Below, piece by piece: positions 3,977 to 50,527 of a DNA stretch of 64,000 nucleotides. Every line of letters begins with the position of its first letter. Within the stretch, counting starts at the first letter, position 1. The translations under genes and the position numbers were made by a program. The notes beneath the pieces were generated by a model. It saw nothing but the letters and a program-made list of their open reading frames with translations, searched no databases and was not told the origin of the DNA. The stretch comes from a virus: IMG/VR virus record IMGVR_UViG_3300045988_144755. One strand, 5' to 3'.

Positions 3977-5320
3977 ATGGCTCGTAAAACGCCGCAGGCC
4001 ATTCAGCAGTACCGTGGTACCACCGAACAGCACGCCACCTACACTGGCCCCATTGGTGAACTCACCGTCGATACCGACAAGAAGGTTGTCGTTGTTCAGG
4101 ATGGCACTACCGCTGGCGGTATCCCGATGGCCCGCGAAGACCGCAAGGTTGCTGGCGATGCGTACATCAAGGTGAACAACGCTGCCGAGGGCACCCTTGC
4201 TGCCGACCTGACCCTTACCGTGGATATGACGCAGGTCGCCGCTGACCTCGTTTCCACCGATGAAAACAACGGCCTGTCCGTAGGCACCGACAACAAGCTG
4301 TTCGCCAAGGCTCCTGATGCCGATCTCATCCTTCGCCCCAACGACAAAATCCTCCATGACGTGGACGGCAAGGTTGCCGCTGACATCTCCGTCAGCTACG
4401 ACCAGCCCTCTGGCGTTCTGAACATCATCGGTCATGACGGTTCCACCGTTGTCGCTACCGCCACTATCCCCTCCAGTACGTCCGCCCTGAAGGGCGTCGA
4501 GCTCGTGGAAGGCAAGCCTTCCGCTGACGGCGAGGAAGTCGAAGGCGACTACCATGTGAGCCTGCGCGTGGCTTATAAGCAGGGTGGTGCCCAGAAGTAT
4601 TCCGATGCCGCTGGCGTGACCTTCACCGCCACCAAGGGCACCGAGAGCGCGGGCGTCGCCATGCCTGAGTTCACCGTGCCTGAAGACGCTACGGATCAGA
4701 AGTACGAAGCCGTGTTCATGGGTCAGGAAGCGGAACAGGCCGTGGCTGCCACTGCCGCCTTCGCGTTCACCGATGGCTCCACCATGCGCCTTGCGGAAGG
4801 TATGCTGTACTTCACCCCGCAGATCGGCATCGAAGCTGGCACCTACCTGCACTTCATCTTCGTGCTGTCTGACGGCACCCTCGCCGACCTGTACATTGAC
4901 GTTACCGACCTCGTGGACGTGTACACCGCCGGACAGGGCATCTCCATTTCCGGCAAGGTGATCTCCGTCAAGCTCGGCGCTGATGGCGGCGTGAAGTTCG
5001 ACGAATCCGGCAACATCGTGGTGGACTTCACCAAGATTGTTTCCACCGATGAAGACAATGCGCTGAAGGAAGGCGCTGACGGCAAGCTCTCTGTGACGGT
5101 CGTGTCCGCTGATGAAGGGAACCTCATCAAGACGGGCTCGGACAAGGGCGCTCTGCTGACCAAGGACGACATCACCGACGCGGTGGAAGAAATCGTGTCC
5201 GGTGTCGTCACCGCCGGAACCATGTGCTCCGAGCTTCGTGCCGAAACCGCTGACAACCAGATTGTCTGCAATGCTGGCAAGATGTACGTCACTTCCGATT
5301 ACGGCACGATGGGCGAGTAA
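3977..5320 (+). CDS. tail fibre protein with Mtd_N-like N-terminal domain
   Basis: N-terminus IQQYRGTTEQHATYTGPIGELTVDTDKKVVVVQDGTTAGGIP closely resembles the N-terminus of the Bordetella phage BPP-1 Mtd receptor-binding protein (VQFRGGTTAQHATFTG..EITVDTDKNTVVVHDGATAGGFP), from memory. Internal STDENNGLSVGTDNKLF and SADEGNLIKTGSDKGALL repeats are shared with 2750-3949. Confidence 0.65.
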   Translation: MARKTPQAIQQYRGTTEQHATYTGPIGELTVDTDKKVVVVQDGTTAGGIPMAREDRKVAGDAYIKVNNAAEGTLAADLTLTVDMTQVAADLVSTDENNGLSVGTDNKLFAKAPDADLILRPNDKILHDVDGKVAADISVSYDQPSGVLNIIGHDGSTVVATATIPSSTSALKGVELVEGKPSADGEEVEGDYHVSLRVAYKQGGAQKYSDAAGVTFTATKGTESAGVAMPEFTVPEDATDQKYEAVFMGQEAEQAVAATAAFAFTDGSTMRLAEGMLYFTPQIGIEAGTYLHFIFVLSDGTLADLYIDVTDLVDVYTAGQGISISGKVISVKLGADGGVKFDESGNIVVDFTKIVSTDEDNALKEGADGKLSVTVVSADEGNLIKTGSDKGALLTKDDITDAVEEIVSGVVTAGTMCSELRAETADNQIVCNAGKMYVTSDYGTMGE

Positions 5321-7837: not shown

Positions 7838-8827
7838 ATGCCTCGCAAAATTCCTAAGCCAGTACAGCAGTTTCGCGGGACGACTGCGCAGCACGCTACC
7901 TATACTGGCCCAGAGGGTGAAATCACCGTTGATACCACAAAGCACACGGCAGTTGTGCATGATGGGCAGACGGCTGGCGGCTTCCCTTTGATGCGGGAGC
8001 ATGACATTGTCGATGATGTGCAGATTACGGCATCTGTCGGCACTGCTGAGGCTATTTGGAATGTGTCTGTCGCTGTCGCTGATGGTGACGGTAGTTGGAC
8101 TGCTCCTTTGGCCTTGAGCATCCAAGGCAAAGTTAATACGCCCATTGCAAGGGTCGTGAACGCGCAGCCCGGTGCTGACCATCTTGGAGGCGTGCGGGTT
8201 GTCTACAAGGGGGAAACGCAGCAGGCACAGACTGGTTTCTCTCAGACTGGCGGGACGGCAAATTTCTCGTTCACTGACGGGACTACTTGTGCGGTGGTTG
8301 CTGCGGCTGAATCTGATGGGAAACAGGCTATCACGTTTACGTTCACGTTTGCCGCTACTGCCAGTGGGCCGTTCCTGTGTGTTTCTGGCGTGCGCAAGAA
8401 TGTGGCCTATGAAGTTGCCGATCCGCTCCTGTCTCAAGACCCGATGAACGCCCTTACCGCTGGCACTGACGGTAAGATTATGCTCGACGGTTCTGGTCTG
8501 GACAAGAGCTATCTTCCGCTGTATTTTCCCTTTGAAAGTGATGAAATAGTGCCGGAAATCCATACGTTCTTCCCTGACCATTGCAGGGTCATTCTGGTGG
8601 ATGGCCTTCAGTCTGATGGAACGAGCGTGGATGCTCTGGGCATCACGGTTCAGCTCGATGGGGACAGTGAGGGCACCTCGGCTGTGACGCTCAAGAATGG
8701 GCAGATTGACAGCGATGGCGCTTTTGCGGGAAAGGCTGTAGTCATTCGGTGTTCTGGGCGTACTACGGAGACGTGGGTTTCTGCGTTGCTTCGTCTGACC
8801 CCCACAATGCTGGCGTCCGATTTATAG
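7838..8827 (+). CDS. tail fibre protein paralog with Mtd_N-like N-terminal domain
   Basis: N-terminus VQQFRGTTAQHATYTGPEGEITVDTTKHTAVVHDGQTAGGFPLMREHD is nearly motif-identical to the BPP-1 Mtd N-terminus and paralogous to 3977-5320. The C-terminal part is unrelated to the paralog. Confidence 0.65.
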   Translation: MPRKIPKPVQQFRGTTAQHATYTGPEGEITVDTTKHTAVVHDGQTAGGFPLMREHDIVDDVQITASVGTAEAIWNVSVAVADGDGSWTAPLALSIQGKVNTPIARVVNAQPGADHLGGVRVVYKGETQQAQTGFSQTGGTANFSFTDGTTCAVVAAAESDGKQAITFTFTFAATASGPFLCVSGVRKNVAYEVADPLLSQDPMNALTAGTDGKIMLDGSGLDKSYLPLYFPFESDEIVPEIHTFFPDHCRVILVDGLQSDGTSVDALGITVQLDGDSEGTSAVTLKNGQIDSDGAFAGKAVVIRCSGRTTETWVSALLRLTPTMLASDL

Positions 8828-8909: not shown

Positions 8910-10493
8910 ATGGACAGTTTGCTTTGTGGTTATCTGCGGTTTGGTAAGCCTTTGGAAAAGCAAAGTTTGCTTTTTGTAGTAGATACTGAAGCTACTACAT
9001 CAGGAGGAGTACAAACGGCAAACCCAGTTCATGCTTTTCCTAGGCTATCTAGCGGTAATTTATCTACCGCTACTTTAACTATAGATTGGGGTGATGGTAC
9101 TTCGACAACTATTCCAAAGAATACACCATACGATAATAATTACTTTACTGATTATTCCACGCATACATATGAAGCTCCCGGAAAATATATTGTAACTGTA
9201 GAGGCGTATGATTTTTCTTCTTGTTCCTTTGGCGTAAATTCTAATACGTCTGCCGCATTTTCAAAATTAAAACTGTGGCGGGATACAGTAATTAGCATAG
9301 GCCCAGAAGATGCAGAAGAATATTCTTTGCCTTGTATGAAGAGCGATTTTTCATATGCTTTTGCTAGTTGTATGAAATTGACCAAAGTACCATTCGGATT
9401 ATTTAAGAATAATCCGATGATTACTGATTTTTATAGTGTATTTTATTTTTGTACAGCATTAACTGAAATTCCAGAAGATTTATTCGCGTATACTGATAAA
9501 GTTACTAATTTATCTTTTGCTTTTTGTAATTGTATAAAATTGACAGGGCCTATCCCGGAAGGGTTGTTCGCTAATAATCCCGCTGTAACGTCATTTGACA
9601 ATATATTCCAGCAATGTACAGAGTTAACAGGGCCTATCCCGGAAGGGTTGTTCGCTAATAATCCTGCTGTAACGTCATTTGACAATATATTCCAGCAATG
9701 CACAAAGCTATCAGGGTCTATCCCGGAAGGGTTGTTCGCTAATAATCCTGCTGTAACGTCATTTAACTACACATTCTACGAGTGTTTAGGATTAACTGGT
9801 ACTATTCCTGAAGGGCTGTTCGCTAGTAACCCTGATGTAACGTCATTTGATAATACATTTGTGCGCTGCGCAGGGTTGTCAGGGTCTATTCCTGAAGGGC
9901 TGTTCGCCAATAATCTTGCTGTAACGTCATTTGATAGTACATTCATGCAATGTGCAGGGTTAACAGGGTCTATCCCAGAAAATTTGTTCGCCAATAACAC
10001 TGCTGTGACTTCATTTGATTCTGTATTTTATGCTTGCTACTCGTTAGCAGGAGATATTCCTGAGAATTTATTTATTCATAATAATGAAGTAACTTCATTT
10101 GCTGGTGCATTTTTTGCTTGTAGAGAATTAACAGGGGCTATTCCTAGCGGTTTATTCTCTAGCAAGACTAAACTAACTTCTGTTGAACGTGTGTTTGAAG
10201 GATGCACAGGATTAACGGGGGCTATTCCTGAAGAACTTTTTGCTAGTAGTCCTTTAATCACTTCATTCAGTTATGTGTTTTCTGAATGTACAGGGTTAAC
10301 GGCGGTACCTAAAGCACTTTTTGAAGAAAATATAAATGCTGTAACTTTTATTGAGACATTTTATGGTTGTTCTGGTATAACAAGTGAAGTTCCTGAGCTG
10401 TGGATTTCACACCCGGATGCGACAGGCACATACTGCTATTTGCGCTGCACCAATGCCGCCAACTACGCTGATATTCCCGCTGATTGGAGATAA
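8910..10493 (+). CDS. BspA-type leucine-rich-repeat surface protein (tandem ~28-aa repeats)
   Basis: GGAGGG RBS. Repeats of L(T/S)G(P/S)IPEGLFANNPAVTSFDNIFQQCT..., as in BspA-type LRR proteins. The region is markedly lower in GC than its flanks. Confidence 0.6.
   Translation: MDSLLCGYLRFGKPLEKQSLLFVVDTEATTSGGVQTANPVHAFPRLSSGNLSTATLTIDWGDGTSTTIPKNTPYDNNYFTDYSTHTYEAPGKYIVTVEAYDFSSCSFGVNSNTSAAFSKLKLWRDTVISIGPEDAEEYSLPCMKSDFSYAFASCMKLTKVPFGLFKNNPMITDFYSVFYFCTALTEIPEDLFAYTDKVTNLSFAFCNCIKLTGPIPEGLFANNPAVTSFDNIFQQCTELTGPIPEGLFANNPAVTSFDNIFQQCTKLSGSIPEGLFANNPAVTSFNYTFYECLGLTGTIPEGLFASNPDVTSFDNTFVRCAGLSGSIPEGLFANNLAVTSFDSTFMQCAGLTGSIPENLFANNTAVTSFDSVFYACYSLAGDIPENLFIHNNEVTSFAGAFFACRELTGAIPSGLFSSKTKLTSVERVFEGCTGLTGAIPEELFASSPLITSFSYVFSECTGLTAVPKALFEENINAVTFIETFYGCSGITSEVPELWISHPDATGTYCYLRCTNAANYADIPADWR
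9541..9792 (+). repeat. Three near-identical 84-bp tandem repeats inside the LRR gene (more degenerate copies continue to about 10300)
   Basis: Units 9541-9624 and 9625-9708 differ at only a few positions; the third unit 9709-9792 has a diverged 3' end. Confidence 0.8.
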
Positions 10494-10693: not shown

Positions 10694-10708
10694 GGCTGCG
10701 AAATAAAA

Positions 10709-10741
10709 GCTCCCTACCCGATGAAGGTAGGGAGCTTTTTT
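10709..10741 (+). terminator. rho-independent terminator
   Basis: GCTCCCTACC-cgatgaa-GGTAGGGAGC followed by TTTTTT. It lies immediately upstream of the silent cassette and of IR-L. Confidence 0.75.
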
Positions 10742-10762
10742 ACGGGCCTCGCCTTTTTCATA

Positions 10763-10812
10763 GGCGGCACCTCCACGGTATCGTTCAGTGTGAGTGCCTC
10801 GACATATGCGCT
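10763..10812 (+). repeat. IR-L: 50-bp inverted repeat (49/50 match to 12128-12177), encodes GGTSTVSFSVSASTYAL in frame
   Basis: ggcggcacctccacggtatcgttcagtgtgagTgcctcgacatatgcgct matches the reverse complement of 12128-12177, with a single T/C difference at 10795. Confidence 0.85.
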
Positions 10813-10822
10813 CACGTTAACA

Positions 10823-11561
10823 TCCCCGACCAATGTAAAGACTAGGGTTCCTGAGCCTGTTACTTTTAATGTAACAAAAAATAATAAACCTTATACTGGC
10901 CCGGTGCAGCTTACTTCTAATATCTCACAAGTACCTGCACAAACTATTAATGCACAAAATGGTGTTGGGTCTACGACTATTACTTTTACAGTACATGGAG
11001 ATTATATTATTTATTTGTCTGTTGGCGATTTGACTACACAATATAATTATTCGACTACAGCTTTAACTTACGAATATGTTAATCTTGGTGACGATATAAC
11101 TGGATGGACTTGCCCGCCATCTGCTCCTTTGTATCTTTATTGGCATGGCGTGCGTGTTTACCAAGCTAATGGCCCGGATACTACATCAACACGTATTCAA
11201 GCAAGTAATGGTAAAGTATATTACAAAGGAGTACACCAATCAATGTATAGTTACTCTATTGCAGAATATGACCATTAATGGCGCGTCCACCACGATTGCA
11301 GGGGAGGCGAAGCCCGGCCCAACCTATCTGTATGATAATGAGCATGTTTGGACTGTTTCCAGAACTAACCTTCCCGGAGGGATGGAGTTCAATTCGGTCT
11401 TTTGTATTTGGGGTGGTCAGTCTATTGCAAATACTATGGACTTGGATGCTACTTCGGTGGTTGGTTCTGATGGATATACATACCTTCGCGGGGAATATCA
11501 GGAACAAGAAGTGAGTGGGTCTACCACAAACAGCCATTACTCCATAGCCAGACAAGAATAA
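10823..11561 (+). pseudogene. silent alternative C-terminal cassette for the Ig-repeat fibre (no start codon or promoter, low GC; frame break near 11265-11278)
   Basis: Frame A (10763-11278) continues the IR-encoded peptide for ~150 codons to a TAA at 11276. Frame B (ATG at 11268, to 11561) encodes MTINGASTTIAGEAKPGPTYLYD...YTYLRGEYQ...YSIARQE. This is homologous to the C-terminus of the - strand gene (GNGASTTIAGEAKPEPVYKYDD...HTYLRGELK...YAIARQV). The track ORF starting at 10721 begins inside the terminator hairpin. Confidence 0.5.
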
Positions 11562-11568
11562 AACAGTT

Positions 11569-11595
11569 CCGCCCGCTACATTTAGTAGCGGGCGG
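11569..11595. terminator. bidirectional hairpin between convergent coding ends
   Basis: CCGCCCGCTAC-attta-GTAGCGGGCGG, 11-bp perfect stem, lying between the + cassette stop (11561) and the - gene stop (11602). Confidence 0.55.
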
Positions 11596-11601
11596 ATTCA
11601 T

Positions 11602-14600
11602 TTATACCTGCCGTGCTATGGCATATTTATGTGTTCTTGTGTACGACTGGTCATTCGTTTCTTTCAGTTCTCCACGAAGATATGTATGACCATCAATACC
11701 CTCGGTAGGAGTATCAGTATCTCCCCGACCGCCATTATAAGCGACCATCTGTCCTTCATAGAACAATATGACAAAAGATTCCCCTATACTACCGTCAGGA
11801 GACCAAGTACTCTGCCATGTCCAACTATTGCCATCATCATACTTGTACACAGGTTCGGGCTTTGCCTCCCCTGCAATCGTGGTGGACGCGCCATTGCCAG
11901 AAGCATCAGTAAAGGACACGGTATACGAACCTCCATTCGCATTGGTGCTGGTTAAAGTTTCAGTGAATTGCCCTGCCGAATTGGTGGCCTTCGCCCCGGT
12001 GGTGCCGCCAGAAAGACCGCCAAAGCTCGTTACGCTAACCCCGCTGGTGATGGGGTTGCCGTTGCGTTTGCAAGTGAAGGTGACGGCTGTAGCGGTATTG
12101 TACGCCAGCGTGTTCGGGCTTGCCGAAAGCGCATATGTCGAGGCGCTCACACTGAACGATACCGTGGAGGTGCCGCCGCCAAACGAGAGAGTCACGGTTT
12201 TGCTGCCTATGGACGTTGCCGTCAGGGAGACGGTGAACTTGCCACCGGATGCTGTTGCCGAGGCAGGGCCAGAAAGCCCGGAGCTGTACGACAGACTGAC
12301 GGAGCCAGCGTAGTTGGCGTTGTTCTTCTTGACCGTGAAGGTGACGGAGTCGGGGTCGTTGGTGTAGAGCTGAGAGATGTTTGCCGAAGCAGCGTAAGTA
12401 GCGGCTGCCACCGTAAATGTTGCCGTTGCTGACCCACCGCCGAACGAGACGGTGACGGTTTTATTGCCCGTGGTGGTAGCGGTCAGCTTGTTCGTGCATT
12501 TGCCGTCAGTGGCAGTTGCCGAGGTGCTGCCGGAAAGCCCAGAGGGAAGCGAGAAGGTAACGGCACCATCATAAGCGACGTTGTTCCGCTTCACGGTGAA
12601 CGTCACATTGGAAGCCAAATCTTCCGTCAGGGCTGTGGGCGAAGCCGATACTGTGTATGTAGCTGCCGATACGGTGAAGGCAATGGCGTCTGAGCCACCG
12701 CCGTAGGTCAGAGTGATATTGCCTGCTGTAGTTCCGCTTGCTGCCACTGAGATGGTAAACTGACCAGAAGCGTTTGCCGTGGCAGATGCCGGGCCACTGA
12801 GGTTTCCGCTGTATTTGATGGTGACAGCCCCGGCATAAACTGCGTCGTTCTTCTTCACAGTGAAGGTGACGGACTTGCTGTTGTAGGCTTGGACGCTGGT
12901 GCTGTTGGCAGAGGCCGTGTAGGTGGCTGCCGAGATGGTCATGGTATCGGACGCATTCCCGCCGCCGAAGGTAGCTTTGATGGTACCCGTTCCGGTGGCG
13001 TCTGCGGATACGTTGATGGTGAACTGACCAGAGGCGTTCGCTGTGGCGGATGCCGGGCCAGAAAGCCCACCGCTGTACGTCAGCGTCACAGCGCCAGCGT
13101 AGGCCGCATTGTTCCGCTTCACGGTGCCAGTGATGGACTTTGTTTCATCAACCCGGATGGTGGTAGGACTGACGACGAAGGAGTAGGTGGACGCTGTGAC
13201 GGATACGGCGTCAGTCGCTGACCCACCACCAAAGGTAAACGTCAGGGTCTTGTTCCCGGCTGTGGTGGCGGTAGCCGTGAGTTTTACCACACCATCGGTT
13301 GCCGTAGCGGATGTGGTGCCGGAAATGCCCGTGGGATACTTCACGGTGACGGCACCGGAATAGTTCTTGCCATTGCGTTTCACGGTAGCGGTGATGGTGC
13401 CGGAGACGTTGGTCTTGAGCGCAGCCGAGGTGATTTCAGCGGCATAGGTCGCAGCCTGAGTATCCACCGTGTAGGAGGCGCTTCCGCCGCCGAAGGTGGC
13501 TTTCACGGTGCCGTCTGCGGTTCCGGTTGAGGTCAACGTGATGCTGAACTGCCCAGAGGCATTGGAGGTAGCCTTTGTAGGCGTACCAGTGATGCCGCCA
13601 GAGTAGGCCAGCGTAACGGCCCCGGCATATGCCTTGCCGTTGCGGGTAACAGTGATGGTGTAGTCAGCTTCCTCGTAGGCGGTGATAGTCTTGCTGCTGG
13701 CGTTGATGGCATACGTGGCGGCAGCAACGGTGATGTCCGCCGTATCCGTCCAGTCATCAACCTTGACCGTCAGCGTTTCCGTTCCGGTATCCTCATAGGT
13801 CGCCTTGTACGTGTACTTGCCTGCGGAGAATGTGACCGAGGTGCCGTTGATGGTGCCCTTTCCGGCGTATGCCTTGCCGTTCCGGGTAACGGTCACAACG
13901 GTGGAACCCGCCTCATACTGCGTAAATTCATCGTTGGAGATTGCCAGCGTGTAGGTAGCGGCGGTTACGGTCGCGGACAGTTTCACGCTGCCGCCACCAT
14001 AGGTTGCGGTGATTGTCCCGCTGCCCACGGTATTGCCTGTGATGGTGAACGTCCCGGTGCCGGAAGAGTTGGTGGTGACTTTCGTATCACCGGATACGCC
14101 GCCGGAGTAGGCCAGCGTGATGGCACCAGCATAGGCTTTTCCGTTCCGTTTTGCGGTGATTGTGACTTCTGCGTCTTCAAACCGCTGAACAGTTTTAGGC
14201 GTGATGCTTGCCGTATAGGTGGCTTCAGTGACTGTGACGGATACAGCATCACTGACAGTTCCGCCCCCGAAGGTGGCGCTGATGGTAGACGCGCCTGCGG
14301 TAGCGCCTGTGACGGTGATGGACACGAGGCCGGACGCATTCGAGGTTGTGGATTTTGTGCTGCTGGTAATGTTGCTGTTATGCGCGAGGGTGACGGCTCC
14401 CTGATACGGTTTTCCGTTTCGCTTGACCGTGAAGCTGACGGCCTCAGATTCGTATTCCTGCACCGTGTAGTCTTCAGCTTCAACGCTGTAGGTTGCCGCA
14501 GCTACAGTGACGGACAGCGTGATGGTTTGCCCATCAATGACCAACTTCAGGGATTGCTTCCCGGAAGTATTGTACGTTGTCGTATAGGTGGCCTTGCCGT

Positions 14601-15006
14601 TAGTGAAGGTAATGGCCTTGCCAGCAAGGGTAGCGGCACCGGAGTAGGCTACGCCATTCCGTTTCGCAGTAATCGTAAGGGTGCCCTGTTCGTACTGCGT
14701 GAACGACCCGGACGAAGTTGCCGTGTATGTCGTTTGTGCGACGGGGTAGGTTTGATCCAGAACGGTGGTACCATTTACTTTTACAACGAGGGGATAATCT
14801 CCGGGAGCATCATGGGGGCCGAGGGTGACGTTTGCTACCCCGTTGGAGTTCAGAGTGTATTCCACCCCATTAACGCTGATTTTTTTTCCGGGAATGAGAA
14901 GGTCATTATCATAGAGGGTGATGGCGCTTGTGACCGTATCGCCAGTATACTCTGGAAGCCCATCTACACTGGCGATGTAGAGATGGTCTGTGTAGTACCC
15001 GTACAT
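11602..15006 (-). CDS. giant Ig-like (Big-type) repeat fibre/adhesin, 1134 aa, about 11 tandem ~90-aa domains
   Basis: AGGAGAG RBS. Repeated domain pattern ...TVKRNGKAYAGAVTLAYSGG(V/L)SG...SGQFTI...G.GTI.ATFGGGS... N-terminal about 100 aa are a non-repetitive domain. The C-terminus carries the IR and a TIAGEAKP...YLRGE...IARQV tip. Confidence 0.7.
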   Translation of the reverse strand: MYGYYTDHLYIASVDGLPEYTGDTVTSAITLYDNDLLIPGKKISVNGVEYTLNSNGVANVTLGPHDAPGDYPLVVKVNGTTVLDQTYPVAQTTYTATSSGSFTQYEQGTLTITAKRNGVAYSGAATLAGKAITFTNGKATYTTTYNTSGKQSLKLVIDGQTITLSVTVAAATYSVEAEDYTVQEYESEAVSFTVKRNGKPYQGAVTLAHNSNITSSTKSTTSNASGLVSITVTGATAGASTISATFGGGTVSDAVSVTVTEATYTASITPKTVQRFEDAEVTITAKRNGKAYAGAITLAYSGGVSGDTKVTTNSSGTGTFTITGNTVGSGTITATYGGGSVKLSATVTAATYTLAISNDEFTQYEAGSTVVTVTRNGKAYAGKGTINGTSVTFSAGKYTYKATYEDTGTETLTVKVDDWTDTADITVAAATYAINASSKTITAYEEADYTITVTRNGKAYAGAVTLAYSGGITGTPTKATSNASGQFSITLTSTGTADGTVKATFGGGSASYTVDTQAATYAAEITSAALKTNVSGTITATVKRNGKNYSGAVTVKYPTGISGTTSATATDGVVKLTATATTAGNKTLTFTFGGGSATDAVSVTASTYSFVVSPTTIRVDETKSITGTVKRNNAAYAGAVTLTYSGGLSGPASATANASGQFTINVSADATGTGTIKATFGGGNASDTMTISAATYTASANSTSVQAYNSKSVTFTVKKNDAVYAGAVTIKYSGNLSGPASATANASGQFTISVAASGTTAGNITLTYGGGSDAIAFTVSAATYTVSASPTALTEDLASNVTFTVKRNNVAYDGAVTFSLPSGLSGSTSATATDGKCTNKLTATTTGNKTVTVSFGGGSATATFTVAAATYAASANISQLYTNDPDSVTFTVKKNNANYAGSVSLSYSSGLSGPASATASGGKFTVSLTATSIGSKTVTLSFGGGTSTVSFSVSASTYALSASPNTLAYNTATAVTFTCKRNGNPITSGVSVTSFGGLSGGTTGAKATNSAGQFTETLTSTNANGGSYTVSFTDASGNGASTTIAGEAKPEPVYKYDDGNSWTWQSTWSPDGSIGESFVILFYEGQMVAYNGGRGDTDTPTEGIDGHTYLRGELKETNDQSYTRTHKYAIARQV
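12128..12177 (-). repeat. IR-R: 50-bp inverted repeat partner of 10763-10812, inside the Ig-repeat fibre gene
   Basis: Its reverse complement ggcggcacctccacggtatcgttcagtgtgagCgcctcgacatatgcgct encodes FGGGTSTVSFSVSASTYAL in the - gene frame. Confidence 0.85.
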
Positions 15007-15133
15007 AAACTCTCCTGAATTGTTAATGATTAAATACAGTTACTGTTAAGTATAAGGGAAATTTGCGAAGATGTAAATGTTGCGGTATGGAAGTAATTGC
15101 TTGCGGGTACAGAACTTTTCATCGGAGCGATAT
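15007..15133. promoter_or_regulatory. divergent intergenic region between the fibre gene (-) and terS (+); candidate promoters
   Basis: 127-bp AT-richer spacer; a TTGCGA-17bp-TATGGA candidate on the + strand. Weak evidence only. Confidence 0.3.
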
Positions 15134-15607: not shown

Positions 15608-17113
15608 ATGGCTTTCAGATATGATATGTCCCCTACTGGCAAGGCGTTCCATGAGTGCGACAAATACGTAAAGATGCTCTGCGGGCCTTACGGGTCTGGG
15701 AAGTCCTGCTGTTGCGCTATTGACGTGCTGTCGTATGCCTGCGCTCAGGCGGTGGCCCCGGACGGGTATCGGTATGTCCGCGTCGGTGTCGTGCGTTCCA
15801 CGTATCCTGAGCTTTTCTCCACGACGCGGAAATCCTTGCTTGAGGTTTTGCCGGAATCGTGCGGGACGATTACGACAGGCACATCCGGGACGCAGGGGCT
15901 GTACATAATCCCGCTGGTGGACGGGACGAAAGTCCACCTTGAAATTGATTTGGTTGCCGCTGCCAGTGTCGATGACGAATGGCGCTTGCGTTCAAGGAAC
16001 TGGACGTTCGCATGGATGAACGAAGCCAACGGCTGTATCGAAGAAGTGTTCATGATGATCACGCAGCGTATCGGGCGCTACCCTTCCGATGATTTGGGAG
16101 GTGTGTCGTGGGGCGGGGTCATTATGGATTTCAACCAGCCCGCGCCGGGGACGTGGGTGGACAACTTTATGCGGAACCCGCAGCCAAACTGGGCAGTGTT
16201 CCGCCAGCCGCCAGCCGCGTTCAAGCATGAAGATGAGCATGGGAACATTACGTATACCGTCAATCCCAATGCGGAGAATTTGCGGAACCTAGGGGCAAAG
16301 GAAGAAGGCGACCCGGAAGATTTTCCTGCCGAGGAGCGGGGCAAGCGGTACTACAGGAACCAGATCGACGCCCTCATCAAACAGGGGCGGTATGATGTCG
16401 TCGATAACCAATACTGCATGTTGGATGTCCCCGTGGTTGACGGGAAGCCAGTCTATCCGGGGTTCAGCAAGCGGAAGCATGTGGCCCCGCAAGTCCTTGA
16501 GCCCCTCATGTTCCATGATATTATCATCGGCATGGATCAATCCGGCATCCATCCGGCAGCGGTTATCCTGCAAAACCAATACGGAAAGTGGTGTGTCCTC
16601 GACGAACTCTACGCCAATAACGAGGGCTTTGAGAATTTCCTCTATGGTATGCTGGTTCCCCGGTTGCGGGAGAGGTATTCGACGAATCCGATAGTTGCCG
16701 CGATTGACCCTAGCAACCAGCGGGATTCGTGGACGGCGACGACGCCGAAGGAACGTCTTGCCGAGGCGGGCATTGCGGCTGTGACCGAATTGACCAACAG
16801 CCCCAAAATCCGTATCCAGATGGTAGAGCACATGCTCAACTTGGATACTGGCGGTTTGCTGGTAAGCCCGAACTGTGAGCTGCTGGTCAACGGGTTTGTC
16901 CATGAATATCGGTATCGCAGGCTTCGGGGTGGGGGTTCCATCGGTGCGGCCTATACGCCACAACCGGAGAAGAACGACGCAAGCCATGTTCATGATGCGT
17001 TGCAGTATGCGGCGCTGCTCATCTACAGGGATGCGACGAAGGATGACCCGGCAGCGGAAGCCCTTGCAAAGAAACTTTCGGATAAACGGCGCGTACTGCG
17101 GAAGGTCGTATAA
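15608..17113 (+). CDS. terL: terminase large subunit
   Basis: Walker A CGPYGSGKS; Walker B-like WMNEANG. C-terminal nuclease-domain acidic motifs (IIGMDQS, HVHDALQYA). GGAG RBS. 501 aa. Confidence 0.85.
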   Translation: MAFRYDMSPTGKAFHECDKYVKMLCGPYGSGKSCCCAIDVLSYACAQAVAPDGYRYVRVGVVRSTYPELFSTTRKSLLEVLPESCGTITTGTSGTQGLYIIPLVDGTKVHLEIDLVAAASVDDEWRLRSRNWTFAWMNEANGCIEEVFMMITQRIGRYPSDDLGGVSWGGVIMDFNQPAPGTWVDNFMRNPQPNWAVFRQPPAAFKHEDEHGNITYTVNPNAENLRNLGAKEEGDPEDFPAEERGKRYYRNQIDALIKQGRYDVVDNQYCMLDVPVVDGKPVYPGFSKRKHVAPQVLEPLMFHDIIIGMDQSGIHPAAVILQNQYGKWCVLDELYANNEGFENFLYGMLVPRLRERYSTNPIVAAIDPSNQRDSWTATTPKERLAEAGIAAVTELTNSPKIRIQMVEHMLNLDTGGLLVSPNCELLVNGFVHEYRYRRLRGGGSIGAAYTPQPEKNDASHVHDALQYAALLIYRDATKDDPAAEALAKKLSDKRRVLRKVV

Positions 17114-20890: not shown

Positions 20891-21961
20891 ATGTCTCAGG
20901 CAATGCCCGGCGGCACCGAACAGCCGCAGATTTCCAAAGCGTTTATGCGGGCTCCGTCCAATCCGTATTCTCGTATCGTCAACGAGAAGTTGCAGGCGAT
21001 GAATAACCAAACGGCTACCCCGCCTGCGGCTCCGGTAACGCCTGCCCCTGCGCCGACCCCGGCTCCGGCGGCTACCCCGCCCGTGGCTCCGGTAACGCCT
21101 GCCCCTGCGCCGACCCCGGCCCCCAACCCGGCTCCAGCGGCTACCCCGCCTGTGCCCCCGGTGACGCCTGCCCCTGCGCCGACCCCGGCACCTGCCCCAC
21201 AGCAGCAGACGTATGACCCTGCAATGGTTCACCAGCTCATGATGGAGCGGCAGCAGCTTTTGCAGGAGCGTGAGGAACTCGCACGTCAGGCTCAGGAACG
21301 CAACGACTTGGCTGCGGCTCTTGCGCAGGAACGTGAGGAACTGAGCAAGTACCGTCAGCAGCAGCAGTTGCAGAACGCATTGCCGAAAGACGTTTTCGAT
21401 TCTCTGGAATCCATCGACCCGGATGAAGCCAAGCGCATCACTGAAGCCGTGTTGCAGGCCACGCAGCAGATTGTCGCCCCTGTCCAGCAGGCGGTGTCAC
21501 AGCAGGAACAGCGGGCCAATGAGGTGCTCTTGCAGGCGCGTCAGGACGCGGCGCGGGCGCGGGTGGAGCGGCAAAATGCCGAGATCATGCGGGTTCATCC
21601 CGATTTCTTTACCATCCTTAATTCGCCGCAGTATGCCGAGTTCATGTCTCAGCGGGACGGCCTGTCCTCCAAGACGCTCGATCAGCGTGCGGCTGAAGAA
21701 TATACTATGGGGAACACGGCGTATGTCATTGACTTGCTGAACAAGTTCAAGGGCGCGAACGCGACTCCCCCCGTTTCCGAAACTGCCTATACTGTACCCC
21801 CTATCCAAGCGGCGGGCAGCAACGCAGTAGCGGCACCCTCGGCTGAGGAACCCAACTATTCGTTGCGTGACCTCAATAACCTTTACCAGACGCGGCGCAT
21901 AGGCCACGAGCAATACCTTGAAATGCTCAAACGGCTGCGGGCCGCGCCCACCTCGAACTAG
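20891..21961 (+). CDS. putative scaffolding protein (Pro/Ala-rich repeats + coiled coil)
   Basis: GGAG RBS; PPAAPVTPAPAPTPAP tandem repeats, then QLMMERQQLLQEREELARQAQERNDLAAALAQEREELSKYRQQQQ; sits immediately before the putative capsid gene. Confidence 0.5.
   Translation: MSQAMPGGTEQPQISKAFMRAPSNPYSRIVNEKLQAMNNQTATPPAAPVTPAPAPTPAPAATPPVAPVTPAPAPTPAPNPAPAATPPVPPVTPAPAPTPAPAPQQQTYDPAMVHQLMMERQQLLQEREELARQAQERNDLAAALAQEREELSKYRQQQQLQNALPKDVFDSLESIDPDEAKRITEAVLQATQQIVAPVQQAVSQQEQRANEVLLQARQDAARARVERQNAEIMRVHPDFFTILNSPQYAEFMSQRDGLSSKTLDQRAAEEYTMGNTAYVIDLLNKFKGANATPPVSETAYTVPPIQAAGSNAVAAPSAEEPNYSLRDLNNLYQTRRIGHEQYLEMLKRLRAAPTSN
21013..21195 (+). repeat. Three ~57-69-bp tandem repeats encoding (A)TPP(A/V)APVTPAPAPTPAP
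   Basis: Near-identical units at 21013, 21070 and 21139. Confidence 0.7.
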
Positions 21962-45931: not shown

Positions 45932-47221
45932 CTACCCCAACTGCGACATAAGGTTTGCAATAGTGGACTGCGTGGTAGAACTTACCATGCCAGCCACGGG
46001 CTGTCCAGCGGGTGCTGCGGTCTGCACGGGCTCAGGCTGTTCGGGAGCCGCGGCAGTAACAGGCGCTTCCATCGCTTCCGGCATGGCGGACGGGGTATCC
46101 AACGCGCCGCCCACAGAGCCCAAGATGGAGTCTGCCGCATCCAGCAAGTTCCCGAAAGCCTCAGCGGAAATCGTGGGCTGCTGCGCCGGGGCGGGCGCGG
46201 ACGGTGCAACGGGCGGCACGGTCTGGATTTCCTGCATCAGTCCCGACAGGAGCGGGGCGGCCTGTTCCACAGTCTGCACCGGAGCCTGCACCGGAGCCTG
46301 CACCGGAGCCTGCACCGGAGTCTGCACCGGAGACTGAGCCGGGGTCACAGACACCGTGGGCTGAACGGGGGTCTGTACCTGATGAACCGTTGCCGCGGGT
46401 GTCGTCGTCACCGTGGGCTGTGCCTGCACCGGGGCATCACCATAGGTCAGCTTTTCCCGGACAACCGCCAAGTCCTGTGTGGACTGCCGCATGGCACATT
46501 CCTGAACCTGATACAGATTCGATTCGTCAAGGAACAGCATGTTGCCGTTGTTGTCCCGCATGGGCTTGAACATGACCACGCCCTGCACGGGGGAGTTCAC
46601 GTCAAGGACAATCTGGGTCAGGAACATGGACGGCGTGCAAGTGAACGTAGCCGTGGAATACTGGCGGCACACATCCCGGAGCCCGCCCCACTTGTACATA
46701 TTCTGTTCCGGGATGGACTTCCCGAACAGGGAGCTGGAGGTGAGGTCAAAGATGTAGGGCTTCTCCGTATCGAGGAAGAGCTGTCCGTTGACGATGCGGG
46801 CCACGCACCAGACGGTACGGCGGCAAATCTGGAAGGCCCAACGCTCCTGACCATTAACGTTCTGCTTCCGCCTGAACTCAACGGGAAGCGCATCGGGGAA
46901 CGTATCGGGAGTATGCTGAATCCACGTCAGGTCAGGCGCTTCGGGTTCCTGTCCGGGGGCGTACACACGGGAGTACCACACGCAATGGTTGACGGGGGCC
47001 GCGCCCACGAGGACGGCATACAAGCCATTGGCAGGCACAACTTCCTGCGCTCCGTTCTCGCACAGGGCGAAGTCCAGCTTGCGCACCTTGATGCGCCGGA
47101 AGTTGGCACCGCCGAACCCATTGAACGCATCGTCGAACACATTCGTAAACGTCTGCAACACATCGCTGTTAAGGATGGGAAGCTGAGACACGGGCTGAAC
47201 TACGGGGAACTGAGACATCAC
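45932..47221 (-). CDS. hypothetical replication-module protein with C-terminal (PVQA)n low-complexity tail
   Basis: 429 aa; globular N-terminal ~240 aa, then a Pro/Val/Gln/Ala-rich tail. Confidence 0.5.
   Translation of the reverse strand: MMSQFPVVQPVSQLPILNSDVLQTFTNVFDDAFNGFGGANFRRIKVRKLDFALCENGAQEVVPANGLYAVLVGAAPVNHCVWYSRVYAPGQEPEAPDLTWIQHTPDTFPDALPVEFRRKQNVNGQERWAFQICRRTVWCVARIVNGQLFLDTEKPYIFDLTSSSLFGKSIPEQNMYKWGGLRDVCRQYSTATFTCTPSMFLTQIVLDVNSPVQGVVMFKPMRDNNGNMLFLDESNLYQVQECAMRQSTQDLAVVREKLTYGDAPVQAQPTVTTTPAATVHQVQTPVQPTVSVTPAQSPVQTPVQAPVQAPVQAPVQTVEQAAPLLSGLMQEIQTVPPVAPSAPAPAQQPTISAEAFGNLLDAADSILGSVGGALDTPSAMPEAMEAPVTAAAPEQPEPVQTAAPAGQPVAGMVSSTTQSTIANLMSQLG
46274..46342 (-). repeat. Five 12-bp tandem repeats ctgcaccggagc encoding (PVQA)n
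   Basis: Seen directly in the sequence. Confidence 0.7.
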
Positions 47222-49828: not shown

Positions 49829-50527
49829 TCACAGCCCGCACAACGGCGTGTTGTAGAAGTCGCAATACTTGCAGAACCTGTTCTTCCTGCTAGGGAAATC
49901 CTTATTGGCAATAGCCTTGTCCATCTCAGACATCAGCTCCACGACATCCTGCACAAGCTGGATGCCATTGCGGAAATCAATGGTCATGTCCACCGTCTCG
50001 CCCGCATCCACATACCAGTAGGCATAGGAAACAACCGGGCGGTCGAAAAGGATATGGCACAGCAGAGCTTCCACTCTAAGCTGGAAGTCGTCCGTATCCC
50101 ACTTCTTGCCCGTCTTGAAGTCCACCACATGCACGGGCATGTCAGGGTACTTCAGCGGGGGGACAAGGATCATATCGGCCTTGGCCCGCAGGTAGGCATC
50201 ATCATCCCACCATCCAGTCTTCGCCCACTGCCGGGATACCGTGAGTTCCTTTTCGATATAGAGCCTGTGCTCCATAGTCTCCACAAGCTCACGGCCCCAA
50301 AGGATTTGTTCCTGCACATACCCTTGGCACAGATCATCAGGCCACTTCGTTACCGAATCGTAACCATCAGACATGGCTTCTTCCAGAGCCTTATGGACAA
50401 GGCTCCCCCGGCTCTTCGCCACTGAAGCCTTCCACTTAATCTCCTTCGTGATGGACTGCCCCTCGAACCGACGCGGGCACAGCCTGTAGTTCATCATGTT
50501 GGATGGAGAGAATACAAACATCATCAA
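49829..50527 (-). CDS. Cas4/RecB-like PD-(D/E)xK exonuclease with 4-Cys cluster
   Basis: N-terminal Cys (YRLCPRRF), catalytic VDFKTGK, and C-terminal CKYCDFYNTPLC, the Cys-x(n)-CxxC-x5-C arrangement of Cas4/AddB-type Fe-S nucleases. Confidence 0.6.
   Translation of the reverse strand: MMMFVFSPSNMMNYRLCPRRFEGQSITKEIKWKASVAKSRGSLVHKALEEAMSDGYDSVTKWPDDLCQGYVQEQILWGRELVETMEHRLYIEKELTVSRQWAKTGWWDDDAYLRAKADMILVPPLKYPDMPVHVVDFKTGKKWDTDDFQLRVEALLCHILFDRPVVSYAYWYVDAGETVDMTIDFRNGIQLVQDVVELMSEMDKAIANKDFPSRKNRFCKYCDFYNTPLCGL

What the first reader, a model, noticed from the sequence alone, without database searches (positions are those of the whole stretch)
10763..12177. Putative DNA-inversion switch that swaps the C-terminal tip of a 1134-aa Ig-repeat fibre, with no invertase in sight
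Two 50-bp inverted repeats (49/50 identical), at 10763-10812 and 12128-12177, bracket a 1.4-kb segment.

Both copies sit in the same reading frame and encode GGTSTVSFSVSASTYAL. Inside the segment, the expressed C-terminal ~175 codons of the - strand fibre converge on a start-less, promoter-less + strand cassette. That cassette is shielded upstream by an intrinsic terminator (10709-10741). It encodes a diverged alternative tip that ends in the same conserved module (TIAGEAKP...YLRGE...IARQ). A bidirectional hairpin (11569-11595) separates the two ends.

Recombination between the repeats would fuse the alternative tip in frame. This is the logic of the Mu G / P1 C inversion switches, but applied to a giant Big-type fibre and with a low-GC, apparently foreign silent cassette.

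No Gin/Hin-type or tyrosine recombinase is recognisable anywhere in the 64 kb. The invertase may be supplied in trans, the mechanism may differ, or the arrangement may be a fossil.
Basis: partly seen in the sequence, partly recalled or inferred. Interest (0 to 1): 0.85.

Follow-up and report, generated by a model that had tools for sequence, protein, structure and literature searches.

The report
Three-tip fibre inversion switch, no invertase
A very common uncultured human-gut phage flips two nested DNA segments to put one of three alternative tips on a long Ig-repeat fibre, and it appears to do this without any invertase gene of its own, most likely by ordinary homologous recombination between 40-50 bp repeats.

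Summary
The 50-bp inverted repeat (IR2, 10763-10812 / 12128-12177, 49/50) is real. A second, nested repeat (IR1, 40-nt core, 11277-11316 / 11856-11895, 39/40) splits the + strand DNA into two start-less cassettes in different frames: beta (Ig + tip, stop at 11276-11278) and gamma (tip only).

Independent public assemblies of this ~66-kb human-gut phage (98-99% identical) show all four topological states. Alpha, beta or gamma is fused in frame to the fibre (1134, 1114 or 1131 aa). Left-cassette ORFs reporting the two outer orientations are each on roughly 85-90 contigs. In at least 9 samples contigs break exactly at an outer IR2 edge, and two contigs begin at an IR1 edge. That is the signature of mixed orientations within a sample.

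No serine or tyrosine recombinase is recognisable in the whole genome. IR1 and IR2 share no core motif and lack dyad symmetry. The two arms of each repeat co-vary across strains, so gene conversion acts between them.

Best explanation: a real, active, nested three-tip inversion switch (high confidence), driven by homologous recombination (about 50%). Main rival: a host invertase acting in trans. This is a new variant of the Mu G / shufflon kind.

The parts
10705..10745 (+). Intrinsic terminator (14-bp stem, 7-nt loop, T6) that ends the upstream + strand operon and insulates the start-less left cassette. The ATG at 10721, which gene callers use for the 185/205/202-aa 'MKVGSFFTGLAFFI...' ORFs, lies in its loop.
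   Evidence: I4; dG -26.8 kcal/mol, z -4.99
10763..10812 (.). IR2 left arm (outer repeat, 50 nt), preceded by non-coding DNA. Read on the + strand it encodes GGTSTVSFSVSASTYAL.
10813..11278 (+). Cassette beta: a complete, diverged Ig + tip module with no start codon, silent in the window. Its stop TAA is at 11276-11278, and the last two bases of that stop are the first two bases of IR1. It is expressed as the fibre end in L001, L005, L006, L019, L025 and L041.
11277..11316 (.). IR1 left arm (inner repeat, 40-nt core, 32 nt perfect; weaker similarity continues to 11353). It encodes NGASTTIAGEAKP in a frame different from that of beta.
   Evidence: (I1)
11317..11561 (+). Cassette gamma: an alternative tip, silent in the window (GPTYLYDNEH...YSIARQE*). 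The same gamma allele is joined to the Ig module in the IR2-bounded contig L014 (fibre attachment not visible there) and sits in the silent left cassette in L025 and L041. The related gamma2 allele is attached to the long fibre in L003, L007, L015 and L023.
11568..11596 (.). Bidirectional terminator hairpin (12-bp stem) at the point where the converging tips meet. It lies inside the inner segment and therefore serves every state.
   Evidence: z -6.8 on both strands
11602..11855 (-). Tip alpha, the tip expressed in the window (EPVYKYDD...YAIARQV*). It occupies the silent position in L003, L015, L023, L025, L033 and L050.
11856..11895 (.). IR1 right arm (39/40 to the left arm).
11896..12127 (-). 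Ig module ('IgX') lying between IR2 and IR1. It moves with the outer segment and carries whichever of alpha or gamma is joined to it through IR1.
12128..12177 (.). IR2 right arm, inside the fibre gene at an Ig-domain boundary.
12178..15006 (-). Constant part of the fibre gene (the full gene is 11602-15006, 1134 aa): an N-terminal domain plus Big_1 / Invasin_D3 Ig-like repeats of about 88 aa.
   Evidence: (D3)
15049..15077 (-). Sigma-70-like promoter candidate (TTTACA-17-TATACT, 10/12 matches) just upstream of the fibre ATG. It is the only promoter the model requires. This is a consensus match only.

Best explanation
SHOWN. The locus is a two-level, nested DNA-inversion switch on the 3' end of a 1134-aa Big_1-type fibre gene of a ~66-kb, probably virulent, very prevalent human-gut phage.

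Inversion between the IR2 arms flips 10763-12177. This replaces the fibre end 'Ig module + alpha' with the complete module 'beta'. Inversion between the IR1 arms flips 11277-11895. This exchanges alpha and gamma behind the Ig module. The result is four isomers and three alternative C-terminal tips, all members of one all-beta domain family. Only the fibre promoter drives expression. The other cassettes have no start codon. They are insulated by an upstream terminator and by a bidirectional terminator at the convergence point.

INFERRED. The tips are receptor-binding ends, and the switch hedges against variable host surfaces.

INFERRED (about 50%). The exchange is not catalysed by a dedicated invertase. 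It is carried out by general homologous recombination, or by replication-linked template switching, between the 50- and 40-bp homology boxes. The machinery would be host RecA-type functions, the phage replication and repair module (Cas4-like PD-(D/E)XK exonuclease 49829-50527, OB-fold SSB-like protein 45932-47221, SNF2 helicase), or both. The same process keeps the two arms of each repeat identical by gene conversion.
For: The switch is real and active:
- The whole segment is inverted at ~99% identity in L005 and L006.
- All four states occur in independent 65-67 kb assemblies made with different assemblers. State 1: window, L020, L021, L022, L024, L026, L028. State 2: L019 (fibre 1114 aa). 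State 3: L003, L015, L023 (1131 aa), and L014 with the window's own gamma allele. State 4: L025.
- The left-cassette ORFs that report state are on about 86 contigs (beta), about 89 contigs (Ig-alpha) and 2 contigs (Ig-gamma) among the listed cluster members.
- Contigs begin exactly at the first base of IR2 in at least 9 samples. L014, L031 (4 samples) and L034 are bounded by both outer IR2 edges, L030 overruns one edge by 5 nt, and L032 and L033 begin at an IR2 edge only. L051 (612 nt) is bounded by the IR1 arms and L050 begins at IR1.
- None of 60 cassette copies has an internal stop or a length change.

No recombinase:
- Pfam, NCBIfam and PHROGs scans of every non-structural ORF.
- Precomputed Pfam hits for the structural genes and for the rest of the circular genome.
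- A six-frame motif scan.

Homology-driven exchange:
- The two arms co-vary. Both IR2 arms of L022 carry T14, C33 and A46 and are 50/50 identical to each other. Both IR1 arms of L005 and L019 carry A9. Both IR1 arms of L014 carry AA21-22. IR1 position 33 is A/A in L005 and L025 and G/G in L051.
- At IR2 position 33, 19 of 21 two-arm loci are homozygous although the alleles are 2:1. The only heterozygotes are the window and its probable source L021. Both alleles occur with every flank and every cassette.
- Reciprocal site-specific exchange cannot copy a change from one arm to the other.
- IR1 and IR2 share no motif (longest common substring 5 nt) and have no dyad symmetry.
- L018 carries an alpha-like conversion tract inside a gamma remnant, outside IR1.
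- Short repeats elsewhere also rearrange: the LRR gene and the fibre shaft vary in repeat number.

From my own knowledge: 40-50 bp is close to the minimal efficient homology for phage recombination systems.
Against: - No phage recombinase or annealase (RecA/UvsX, RecT, Erf, Rad52-like) was identified. Only an exonuclease and an SSB-like protein were found.
- Every well-studied phage fibre inversion system uses a dedicated invertase (own knowledge). So does the BV01-like gut-phage shufflon (PMC13596623).
- Gene conversion between the arms proves that homology-driven interaction occurs. It does not prove that the inversions themselves arise that way.
- Crossover positions could not be mapped, because the arms are nearly always identical.
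- The lack of a shared motif is not decisive. From my own knowledge, host tyrosine recombinases such as Clostridioides difficile RecV act in trans on several dissimilar repeats.
- Within-sample mixtures could reflect co-resident strains rather than switching in situ.
- The receptor-binding role of the tips is inferred from position and from the invasin/intimin-like architecture only.
Confidence: 0.5

Rival explanations
1. The same nested switch, but the exchange is catalysed in trans by a site-specific recombinase of the (unknown) host or of a co-resident mobile element. IR1 and IR2 would be its recognition sites.
For: - The phage genome has no recombinase, yet both orientations are common.
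- Both repeats have sharply delimited edges.
- Every known fibre switch uses a recombinase, and trans-acting master invertases exist (own knowledge: Bacteroides Mpi, C. difficile RecV). Milman et al. note invertible regions that lack a nearby recombinase gene (PMC9881135).
- The holin family (Phage_holin_4_1) and the L016 junction with a Clostridia-type prophage hint at a Firmicutes host.
Against: - The two repeat pairs share no core (longest common substring 5 nt) and have no internal dyad symmetry.
- At 50 and 40 bp of near-perfect identity, the repeats are longer than typical recombinase sites.
- Arm-to-arm co-variation requires homologous gene conversion in any case.
- Neither repeat core occurs in 185,579 species-representative bacterial genomes.
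- A virulent phage that depended on a host invertase would lose its switch in hosts lacking that enzyme.
Confidence: 0.27
2. A phage-encoded recombinase of an unrecognised family, among the many ORFs of unknown function, catalyses the inversions.
Against: - Serine and tyrosine recombinase profiles are sensitive, and nothing scored even at E 0.01.
- No unknown ORF is linked to the switch. Its neighbours are an LRR protein, a 69-aa ORF and TerS.
- The argument from the two unrelated repeats also applies here.
Confidence: 0.08
3. Not a working switch: the different arrangements are rare historical rearrangements fixed in different strains, or assembly artefacts at the repeats.
For: - No read-level data could be examined.
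- The population is star-like at 98-99% identity, so switch state cannot be shown to change between near-identical genomes.
- Locked or degraded derivatives exist: L018, L007 and L041.
Against: - The repeats (40-50 bp) are shorter than the final assembly k-mers (k141 in the MEGAHIT contig names; k 55 for metaSPAdes is from my own knowledge). Orientation in 65-kb contigs is therefore read-supported.
- Four states occur with the same alleles.
- Isolated IR-bounded contigs in at least 9 samples indicate both junction types within one sample.
- The two outer orientations are about equally frequent.
- All fusions are in frame, and none of 60 cassette copies is disrupted.
- The arms are kept identical.
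Confidence: 0.05

Closest known systems
Invertible tail-fibre segments of phage Mu (G/Gin), P1/P7 (C/Cin), e14 (P/Pin) and plasmid p15B (Min, multiple inversions)
   Same: A constant 5' fibre part is fused by inversion to alternative 3' parts. The cassettes converge and the non-expressed ones have no promoter. p15B Min also has several crossover sites and many isomers. The presumed purpose is host-range switching.
   Different: Those systems have an adjacent serine invertase gene, ~26-bp sites of one family with a fixed central dinucleotide, a Fis-dependent enhancer, and co-inverted chaperone genes (U/U') (own knowledge). Here no invertase was found. There are two unrelated 50- and 40-bp repeats with no dyad symmetry and no chaperone ORF. 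The fibre is an invasin-like Ig rod.
Shufflons (R64 Rci/PilV; the BV01-like Phocaeicola phage tail-fibre shufflon, PMC13596623)
   Same: Multi-cassette inversion acting on the C-terminal end of an adhesin or fibre. Several protein isoforms arise from one gene. All configurations are detectable in gut samples.
   Different: Shufflons use short repeats of one family (a 10-bp motif plus extensions in BV01-like phages; 19-bp sfx in R64, own knowledge) and a flanking tyrosine recombinase. Here the repeats belong to two different families, are longer, and no recombinase is present.
Homology-driven inversion systems: Campylobacter fetus sap S-layer switching (RecA-dependent), herpes simplex virus four genome isomers (both own knowledge), and the ~30-kb invertible modules of Anabaena cyanophages (bioRxiv 10.64898/2026.02.14.705889)
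   Same: Inversion between inverted repeats that are identical by descent and show concerted evolution, without a dedicated site-specific enzyme. This is proposed, not proven, for the cyanophages. Nested or dual repeats give four isomers, as in HSV.
   Different: Those repeats are hundreds to thousands of base pairs long. The cyanophage and HSV inversions re-order whole gene blocks rather than splice coding sequence. Here the homology boxes are only 40-50 bp, sit in frame at domain boundaries, and create alternative proteins.
Gene-altering programmed inversions in prophage tail fibres (Milman et al. 2023, PMC9881135) and putative viral invertons in gut metagenomes (PMC13501310)
   Same: Intragenic inversions that change the coding sequence of phage fibre genes, detected by comparing genomes or reads.
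   Different: Those surveys concern prophages in bacterial genomes, where recombinase genes are enriched near the predicted inversions, or report only a few unresolved candidates on viral contigs. None describes a nested three-tip switch without a recombinase.

Membership tests
Gin/Hin/Cin/Pin-type serine-invertase fibre switch | Invertible segment bounded by inverted repeats that fuses alternative 3' ends to a constant fibre 5' part | tested here: met
Gin/Hin/Cin/Pin-type serine-invertase fibre switch | Serine recombinase (Resolvase domain) gene next to or inside the segment | tested here: not met
   No Resolvase hit in any ORF of the window or in the rest of the genome. No catalytic-motif match in six frames.
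Gin/Hin/Cin/Pin-type serine-invertase fibre switch | Crossover sites of one family, about 26 bp, with imperfect dyad symmetry around a fixed central dinucleotide | tested here: not met
   IR1 and IR2 share at most 5 contiguous nt. The best dyad is 8/13. A direct comparison with the gix/hix consensus was not run.
Gin/Hin/Cin/Pin-type serine-invertase fibre switch | Fis-dependent recombinational enhancer | not testable with these tools
   No invertase gene is present in which such an enhancer would lie. The host and its Fis status are unknown.
Gin/Hin/Cin/Pin-type serine-invertase fibre switch | Cognate tail-fibre assembly gene (U/U') co-inverted with each variable part | tested here: not met
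   Each tip is followed directly by a stop codon and the shared terminator. There is no further ORF in the segment.
Shufflon (Rci-type tyrosine recombinase multiple inversion) | Several invertible segments that give more than two C-terminal isoforms | tested here: met
   Two nested segments, four isomers, three tips.
Shufflon (Rci-type tyrosine recombinase multiple inversion) | All crossover sites are copies of one short repeat family | tested here: not met
   Two unrelated repeat families of 50 and 40 nt.
Shufflon (Rci-type tyrosine recombinase multiple inversion) | Adjacent tyrosine recombinase gene | tested here: not met
   No Phage_integrase hit in the genome. The only integrase seen is a truncated fragment of an unrelated prophage, on one 1.4-kb contig (L016).
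Homologous-recombination-driven inversion (C. fetus sap type, HSV-type isomerisation) | Repeat arms evolve in concert (gene conversion between arms) | tested here: met
   Co-varying changes at five or more positions in independent strains. 19 of 21 two-arm loci are homozygous at IR2 position 33.
Homologous-recombination-driven inversion (C. fetus sap type, HSV-type isomerisation) | No dedicated site-specific recombinase | tested here: met
   Absence within the limits of profile searches. A host enzyme cannot be excluded.
Homologous-recombination-driven inversion (C. fetus sap type, HSV-type isomerisation) | Crossover points distributed along the homology rather than fixed | tested here: inconclusive
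   The arms are almost always identical, so junctions carry no information. Alleles at IR2 position 33 and IR1 position 33 associate with every context, which fits variable exchange or conversion but does not map crossovers.
Homologous-recombination-driven inversion (C. fetus sap type, HSV-type isomerisation) | Dependence on RecA or on phage recombination functions | not testable with these tools
   The phage is uncultured and its host is unknown. Only an exonuclease and an SSB-like protein were identified.
Diversity-generating retroelement (considered because two Mtd_N proteins are present) | Reverse transcriptase plus a template/variable repeat pair in direct orientation | tested here: not met
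   No reverse transcriptase in the genome. The repeats at this locus are inverted and identical, with no adenine-specific differences.

The most novel reading that the evidence does not exclude
A ubiquitous, apparently virulent human-gut phage has evolved a programmed three-way receptor-binding switch that needs no recombinase. Two in-frame homology boxes of 40-50 bp, placed at domain boundaries and kept identical by gene conversion, would be enough for general recombination to generate all four genome isomers at ecologically relevant frequencies. If so, coding-sequence phase variation in phages can exist without the recombinase gene that current search strategies rely on, and it may be widespread and overlooked.
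Probability: 0.45. Interest if true: 0.82.

Novelty: new variant of a known kind. Interest (0 to 1): 0.72.

Why it matters
- **Classic logic in a new setting.** The Mu/P1 idea of swapping fibre tips by inversion also operates in an uncultured, extremely prevalent human-gut phage. Its exact TerL is on record in 880 blocks of the assembly collection. It does so in a nested, three-tip form on an invasin-like Ig fibre.
- **A blind spot in current searches.** The genome lacks any recognisable invertase, yet the arms carry clear signs of homologous gene conversion. If recombination alone drives the switch, searches that look for invertons by recombinase proximity will miss this class. It would also mean that minimal 40-50 bp in-frame repeats are enough to engineer switchable receptor-binding proteins.
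- **Practical consequences for metagenomics.** The switch breaks assemblies at defined points. It makes gene callers annotate silent cassettes as 185-205-aa proteins. A single reference genome under-reports the phage's receptor repertoire.
- **A tractable test case.** It offers a way to ask how phage tropism tracks phase-variable host surfaces in the gut.

Tried and rejected
- Megablast of the locus against deposited phages found no match. TerL matches cultured phages at 32% identity or less, so there is no cultured relative and no host assignment.
- Exact scans of 185,579 species genomes for the IR2 and IR1 cores found nothing. This gives no prophage copy, no host clue and no host loci sharing the sites.
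- I looked for the same tip family or switch in more distant phages. The tip alignment recovered only the same species. A relative with 73% TerL identity (L047) has no Big_1 fibre or repeats at that position. L040 and L027 carry other fibre modules without a switch. I therefore could not test whether diverged relatives keep arm-to-arm identity while changing the arm sequence.
- State versus phylogeny: all genomes are about 1% apart in a star-like pattern, so this was uninformative.
- Crossover mapping from arm polymorphisms was uninformative because the arms are homogenised.
- The L016 lead (an integrase fragment abutting IR2) turned out to be a truncated gene of an unrelated Clostridia-type prophage, joined 7 nt outside IR2 with 2-nt microhomology. 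It is not a recombinase for this switch.
- A look-up of exact TerS, and of a gamma product starting at IR1, found nothing on record.
- DGR and assembly artefact were both considered and rejected (see the membership tests and rival explanations).


Full report
**1. Observation**

The 50-nt inverted repeat is present exactly where reported: IR2, 10763-10812 and 12128-12177, 49/50 identical. No match is expected by chance (0 in 100 shuffles). Both arms encode GGTSTVSFSVSASTYAL in frame. The right arm lies inside a 1134-aa ORF on the - strand (11602-15006). The left arm is preceded by non-coding DNA.

The upstream hairpin (10705-10739, followed by T6; dG -26.8 kcal/mol, z -5.0) is real. So is the convergence-point hairpin (11568-11596), which is terminator-like on both strands (z -6.8). 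A sigma-70-like promoter match (10/12) lies just upstream of the fibre start codon.

The fibre consists of Big_1 / Invasin_D3 Ig-like repeats. An AlphaFold model of its last 191 residues (pLDDT 87) has an Ig domain that best matches invasin and intimin, followed by a compact all-beta tip.

**2.

The + strand DNA holds two cassettes, not one.

- Cassette beta is read in the IR2 frame and stops at TAA 11276-11278 (...YSIAEYDH*).
- The TIAGEAKP...YLRGE...IARQE module (gamma) is in a different frame.
- A second, nested inverted repeat, IR1, links gamma to the expressed tip alpha. Its 40-nt core lies at 11277-11316 and 11856-11895 (39/40, with 32 nt perfect). Weaker similarity extends to 77 nt.
- The first two bases of IR1 complete beta's stop codon.

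A protein alignment shows that beta is a complete Ig + tip module, homologous over its whole length to 'Ig module + alpha' (36% identity). Alpha and gamma are about 48% identical. All three tips are low in GC (37-45%). The repeats are 60-68% GC islands that resemble the fibre body.

**3. Natural genomes show the switch working**

A 27-mer of IR2 recovered related IMG/VR contigs. Metagenome and assembly look-ups added many more. These genomes are 98-99% identical to the window in flanking DNA. L021 has 0 differences over 12 kb and is probably the window's source genome. One locus, L015, comes from a 66.9-kb human-gut contig.

All four topological states predicted for two nested repeats are present:

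| State | Inversion relative to the window | Tip on the fibre | Fibre length | Loci |
|---|---|---|---|---|
| 1 | none | Ig + alpha | 1134 aa | window, contig 120656 (L002+L004), L020, L021, L022, L024, L026, L028 |
| 2 | outer segment | beta | 1114 aa | L005, L006, L019 |
| 3 | inner segment | Ig + gamma-type | 1131 aa | L003, L015, L023 (allele gamma2); L014 (the window's own gamma allele) |
| 4 | both | beta (Ig + gamma silent) | 935 aa in L025 (shorter shaft) | L025, L050 |

 Every fusion is in frame.

The start-less left cassette is called by gene finders as a small ORF beginning 'MKVGSFFTGLAFFI...', and its content reports the state. Among the listed cluster members the beta form is on about 86 contigs, the Ig-alpha form on about 89, and the Ig-gamma form on 2. 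Both orientations of the outer segment are therefore common.

**4. Within-sample mixtures**

In at least 9 samples the assembler produced a contig that begins exactly at the first base of IR2.

- L014 (1412 nt), L031 (1415 nt, present in 4 samples) and L034 (1415 nt) start and end exactly at the two outer edges of IR2.
- L030 (1420 nt) starts at one edge and overruns the other by 5 nt.
- L032 and L033 begin at an IR2 edge but end inside the segment.

At the inner level, L051 is a 612-nt contig bounded by the IR1 arms, and L050 begins exactly at IR1.

The repeats are shorter than the final k-mers: k141 in the MEGAHIT contig names, and k 55 for metaSPAdes from my own knowledge. Breaks of this kind therefore arise when both junction types are present in the reads. 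This shows that orientations coexist within samples. It cannot separate switching in situ from co-resident strains.

**5. Variants**

- L001 and L017 carry a fourth cassette, delta.
- L041 has a single-level switch with two cassettes.
- In L007 the silent alpha is fused directly to a shortened IR2 arm.
- L018 is locked in alpha by a deletion.
- Relatives L027, L040 and L047 lack the switch.

None of 60 cassette copies (10-12 alleles each) has a stop codon or a length change. Polymorphism is mostly non-synonymous, as expected for receptor-binding ends.

**6. No recombinase**

- Pfam scans of every non-structural ORF found no Resolvase or Phage_integrase domain. They found a holin, DNA polymerase A, a DUF927 primase-helicase, an SNF2 helicase, a PD-(D/E)XK / Cas4-like exonuclease, CobS/CobT-like proteins, and two Mtd_N proteins.
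- PHROGs and NCBIfam added nothing relevant.
- A six-frame motif scan was negative.
- Precomputed Pfam hits for the structural genes, and for the ~2.9 kb of the circular genome outside the window, show none.

**7. Mechanism**

Three observations favour homology-driven exchange.

(a) The two repeat pairs are unrelated. Their longest common substring is 5 nt. The weak 13/20 match falls on homologous G-x-S-T codons. Neither repeat has dyad symmetry.

(b) The two arms of each repeat evolve in concert.
- Both IR2 arms of L022 carry T14, C33 and A46.
- Both IR1 arms of L005 and L019 carry A9.
- Both IR1 arms of L014 carry AA21-22.
- IR1 position 33 is A/A in L005 and L025 and G/G in L051.
- At IR2 position 33, 19 of 21 two-arm loci are homozygous although the alleles are 2:1. 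The two heterozygotes are the window and L021. Each allele occurs with every flank and every cassette.

 Conservative site-specific exchange swaps partners but cannot copy a change from one arm to the other. Gene conversion, meaning homologous pairing of the arms, must therefore occur in this phage. Crossover resolution of the same intermediates would give inversion.

(c) Other short-homology events are visible in the same population. L018 has an alpha-like conversion tract inside a gamma remnant, outside IR1. The LRR gene varies in the copy number of its 84-nt repeats (527, 499, 471 aa and others). The fibre shaft varies in its Ig repeats (935-1397 aa).

From my own knowledge, 40-50 bp is near the minimal efficient homology of phage recombination systems.

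**8. Caveats**

- I found no phage annealase or RecA-like protein.
- Crossover positions could not be mapped.
- From my own knowledge, host master invertases such as C. difficile RecV and Bacteroides Mpi act in trans on dissimilar repeats. A host enzyme therefore remains a serious rival.
- The host is unknown. There is no cultured relative, and the repeat cores are absent from 185,579 species genomes.
- One contig, L016, joins IR2 (plus 7 nt of fibre flank) to a truncated tyrosine integrase. That gene belongs to an unrelated temperate element of a spore-forming, high-GC Firmicute. The junction has only 2-nt microhomology. It is either a chimera or an illegitimate recombinant, and it cannot serve as the invertase.

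**9. Comparison with known systems**

The logic is that of Mu G, P1 C, p15B Min and the shufflons, including the recently described BV01-like gut-phage shufflon (PMC13596623). The defining features of those families were tested and not met: an adjacent serine or tyrosine recombinase, a single family of short crossover sites, and co-inverted chaperone genes.

In mechanism it most resembles homology-driven inversions: C. fetus sap and the HSV isomers (own knowledge), and the ~30-kb cyanophage modules for which recombinase-independent inversion has been proposed (bioRxiv 10.64898/2026.02.14.705889). It differs from these in using in-frame boxes of only 40-50 bp to splice coding sequence.

[quoted passage not shown] In the library I could search, I found no description of this phage or of a nested fibre switch without a recombinase.

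**10. Verdict**

This is a real, active, nested inversion switch with three tips (confidence above 0.9) in a very prevalent human-gut phage. It is probably driven by general homologous recombination (about 0.5). A host recombinase acting in trans is the main alternative (about 0.27). It is a new variant of a known kind, with interest 0.72.

Noticed in passing
window 50532-53454 (- strand): DNA polymerase A is split into two ORFs (52264-53454 and 50532-51509) by a free-standing HNH_3 endonuclease gene (51572-52153). Related genomes (L011, and L008/L013 running off the locus end) carry one uninterrupted 716-aa polA, so this looks like a recent homing-endonuclease insertion.
   Followed up: partly
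window 3977-5320 and 7838-8827 (+ strand): Two fibre-like proteins carry the Mtd_N domain, which is best known from the DGR-diversified tropism determinant of Bordetella phage BPP-1. No reverse transcriptase is present anywhere in the genome.
   Followed up: partly
window 8910-10493 (+ strand): A PKD + DUF285 / BspA-like leucine-rich-repeat protein at 38.6% GC, built from 84-nt tandem repeats. Its length varies between strains (527/499/487/471/348 aa). The gene is absent in L003, L007, L024 and L026, and it is truncated and fused to a gamma remnant in L018.
   Followed up: partly
L016 (OLRH01028810.1, 1412 nt), junction 7 nt outside IR2-R: The fibre shaft is replaced by the 5' two-thirds of a tyrosine integrase gene (64% GC). 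The intact copy of that gene sits at the edge of a temperate element (CI-like repressor, ParAB, DnaB), integrated next to ypeB and tRNA-synthetase genes in L054. The junction has only 2-nt microhomology. It is either an assembly or library chimera, or an illegitimate recombinant, and it may hint at a Clostridia host.
   Followed up: partly
[not shown]
   Followed up: partly
window 10721-11278 and the equivalent position in related loci: Gene callers annotate the start-less left cassette as 185-, 205- or 202-aa proteins beginning MKVGSFFTGLAFFI. The ATG lies in the loop of the terminator hairpin, and no Shine-Dalgarno-like sequence is apparent. Whether a free tip protein is ever made is unknown.
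   Followed up: no
window 12178-15006 and related loci: The fibre shaft varies in length between strains: products of 935, 980, 1103, 1134, 1136, 1159 and 1397 aa were seen. This fits gain and loss of ~88-aa Ig repeats by recombination between the 261-264-nt direct repeats.
   Followed up: no
TerL look-up (window 15608-17113): In 470 of the 880 collection blocks holding the exact TerL, the longest contig carrying it is only 5-10 kb. An ~8.9-kb class would fit a contig running from IR2-R (12.13 kb) to a second recurrent break near 21.07 kb, beside the variable gene 20891-21961. This suggests that the switch breaks assemblies in hundreds of samples, but I could not verify it.
   Followed up: no
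L027 1-9800 and L040 6000-9105: Strains with the same TerL carry entirely different specificity modules. L027 has a 762-aa Mtd_N protein, a DUF4376 protein and a 374-aa Big_1 protein. L040 has a short fibre followed by a Phage_tail_APC chaperone gene. The whole 3-15 kb region is therefore a swappable host-range module.
   Followed up: no
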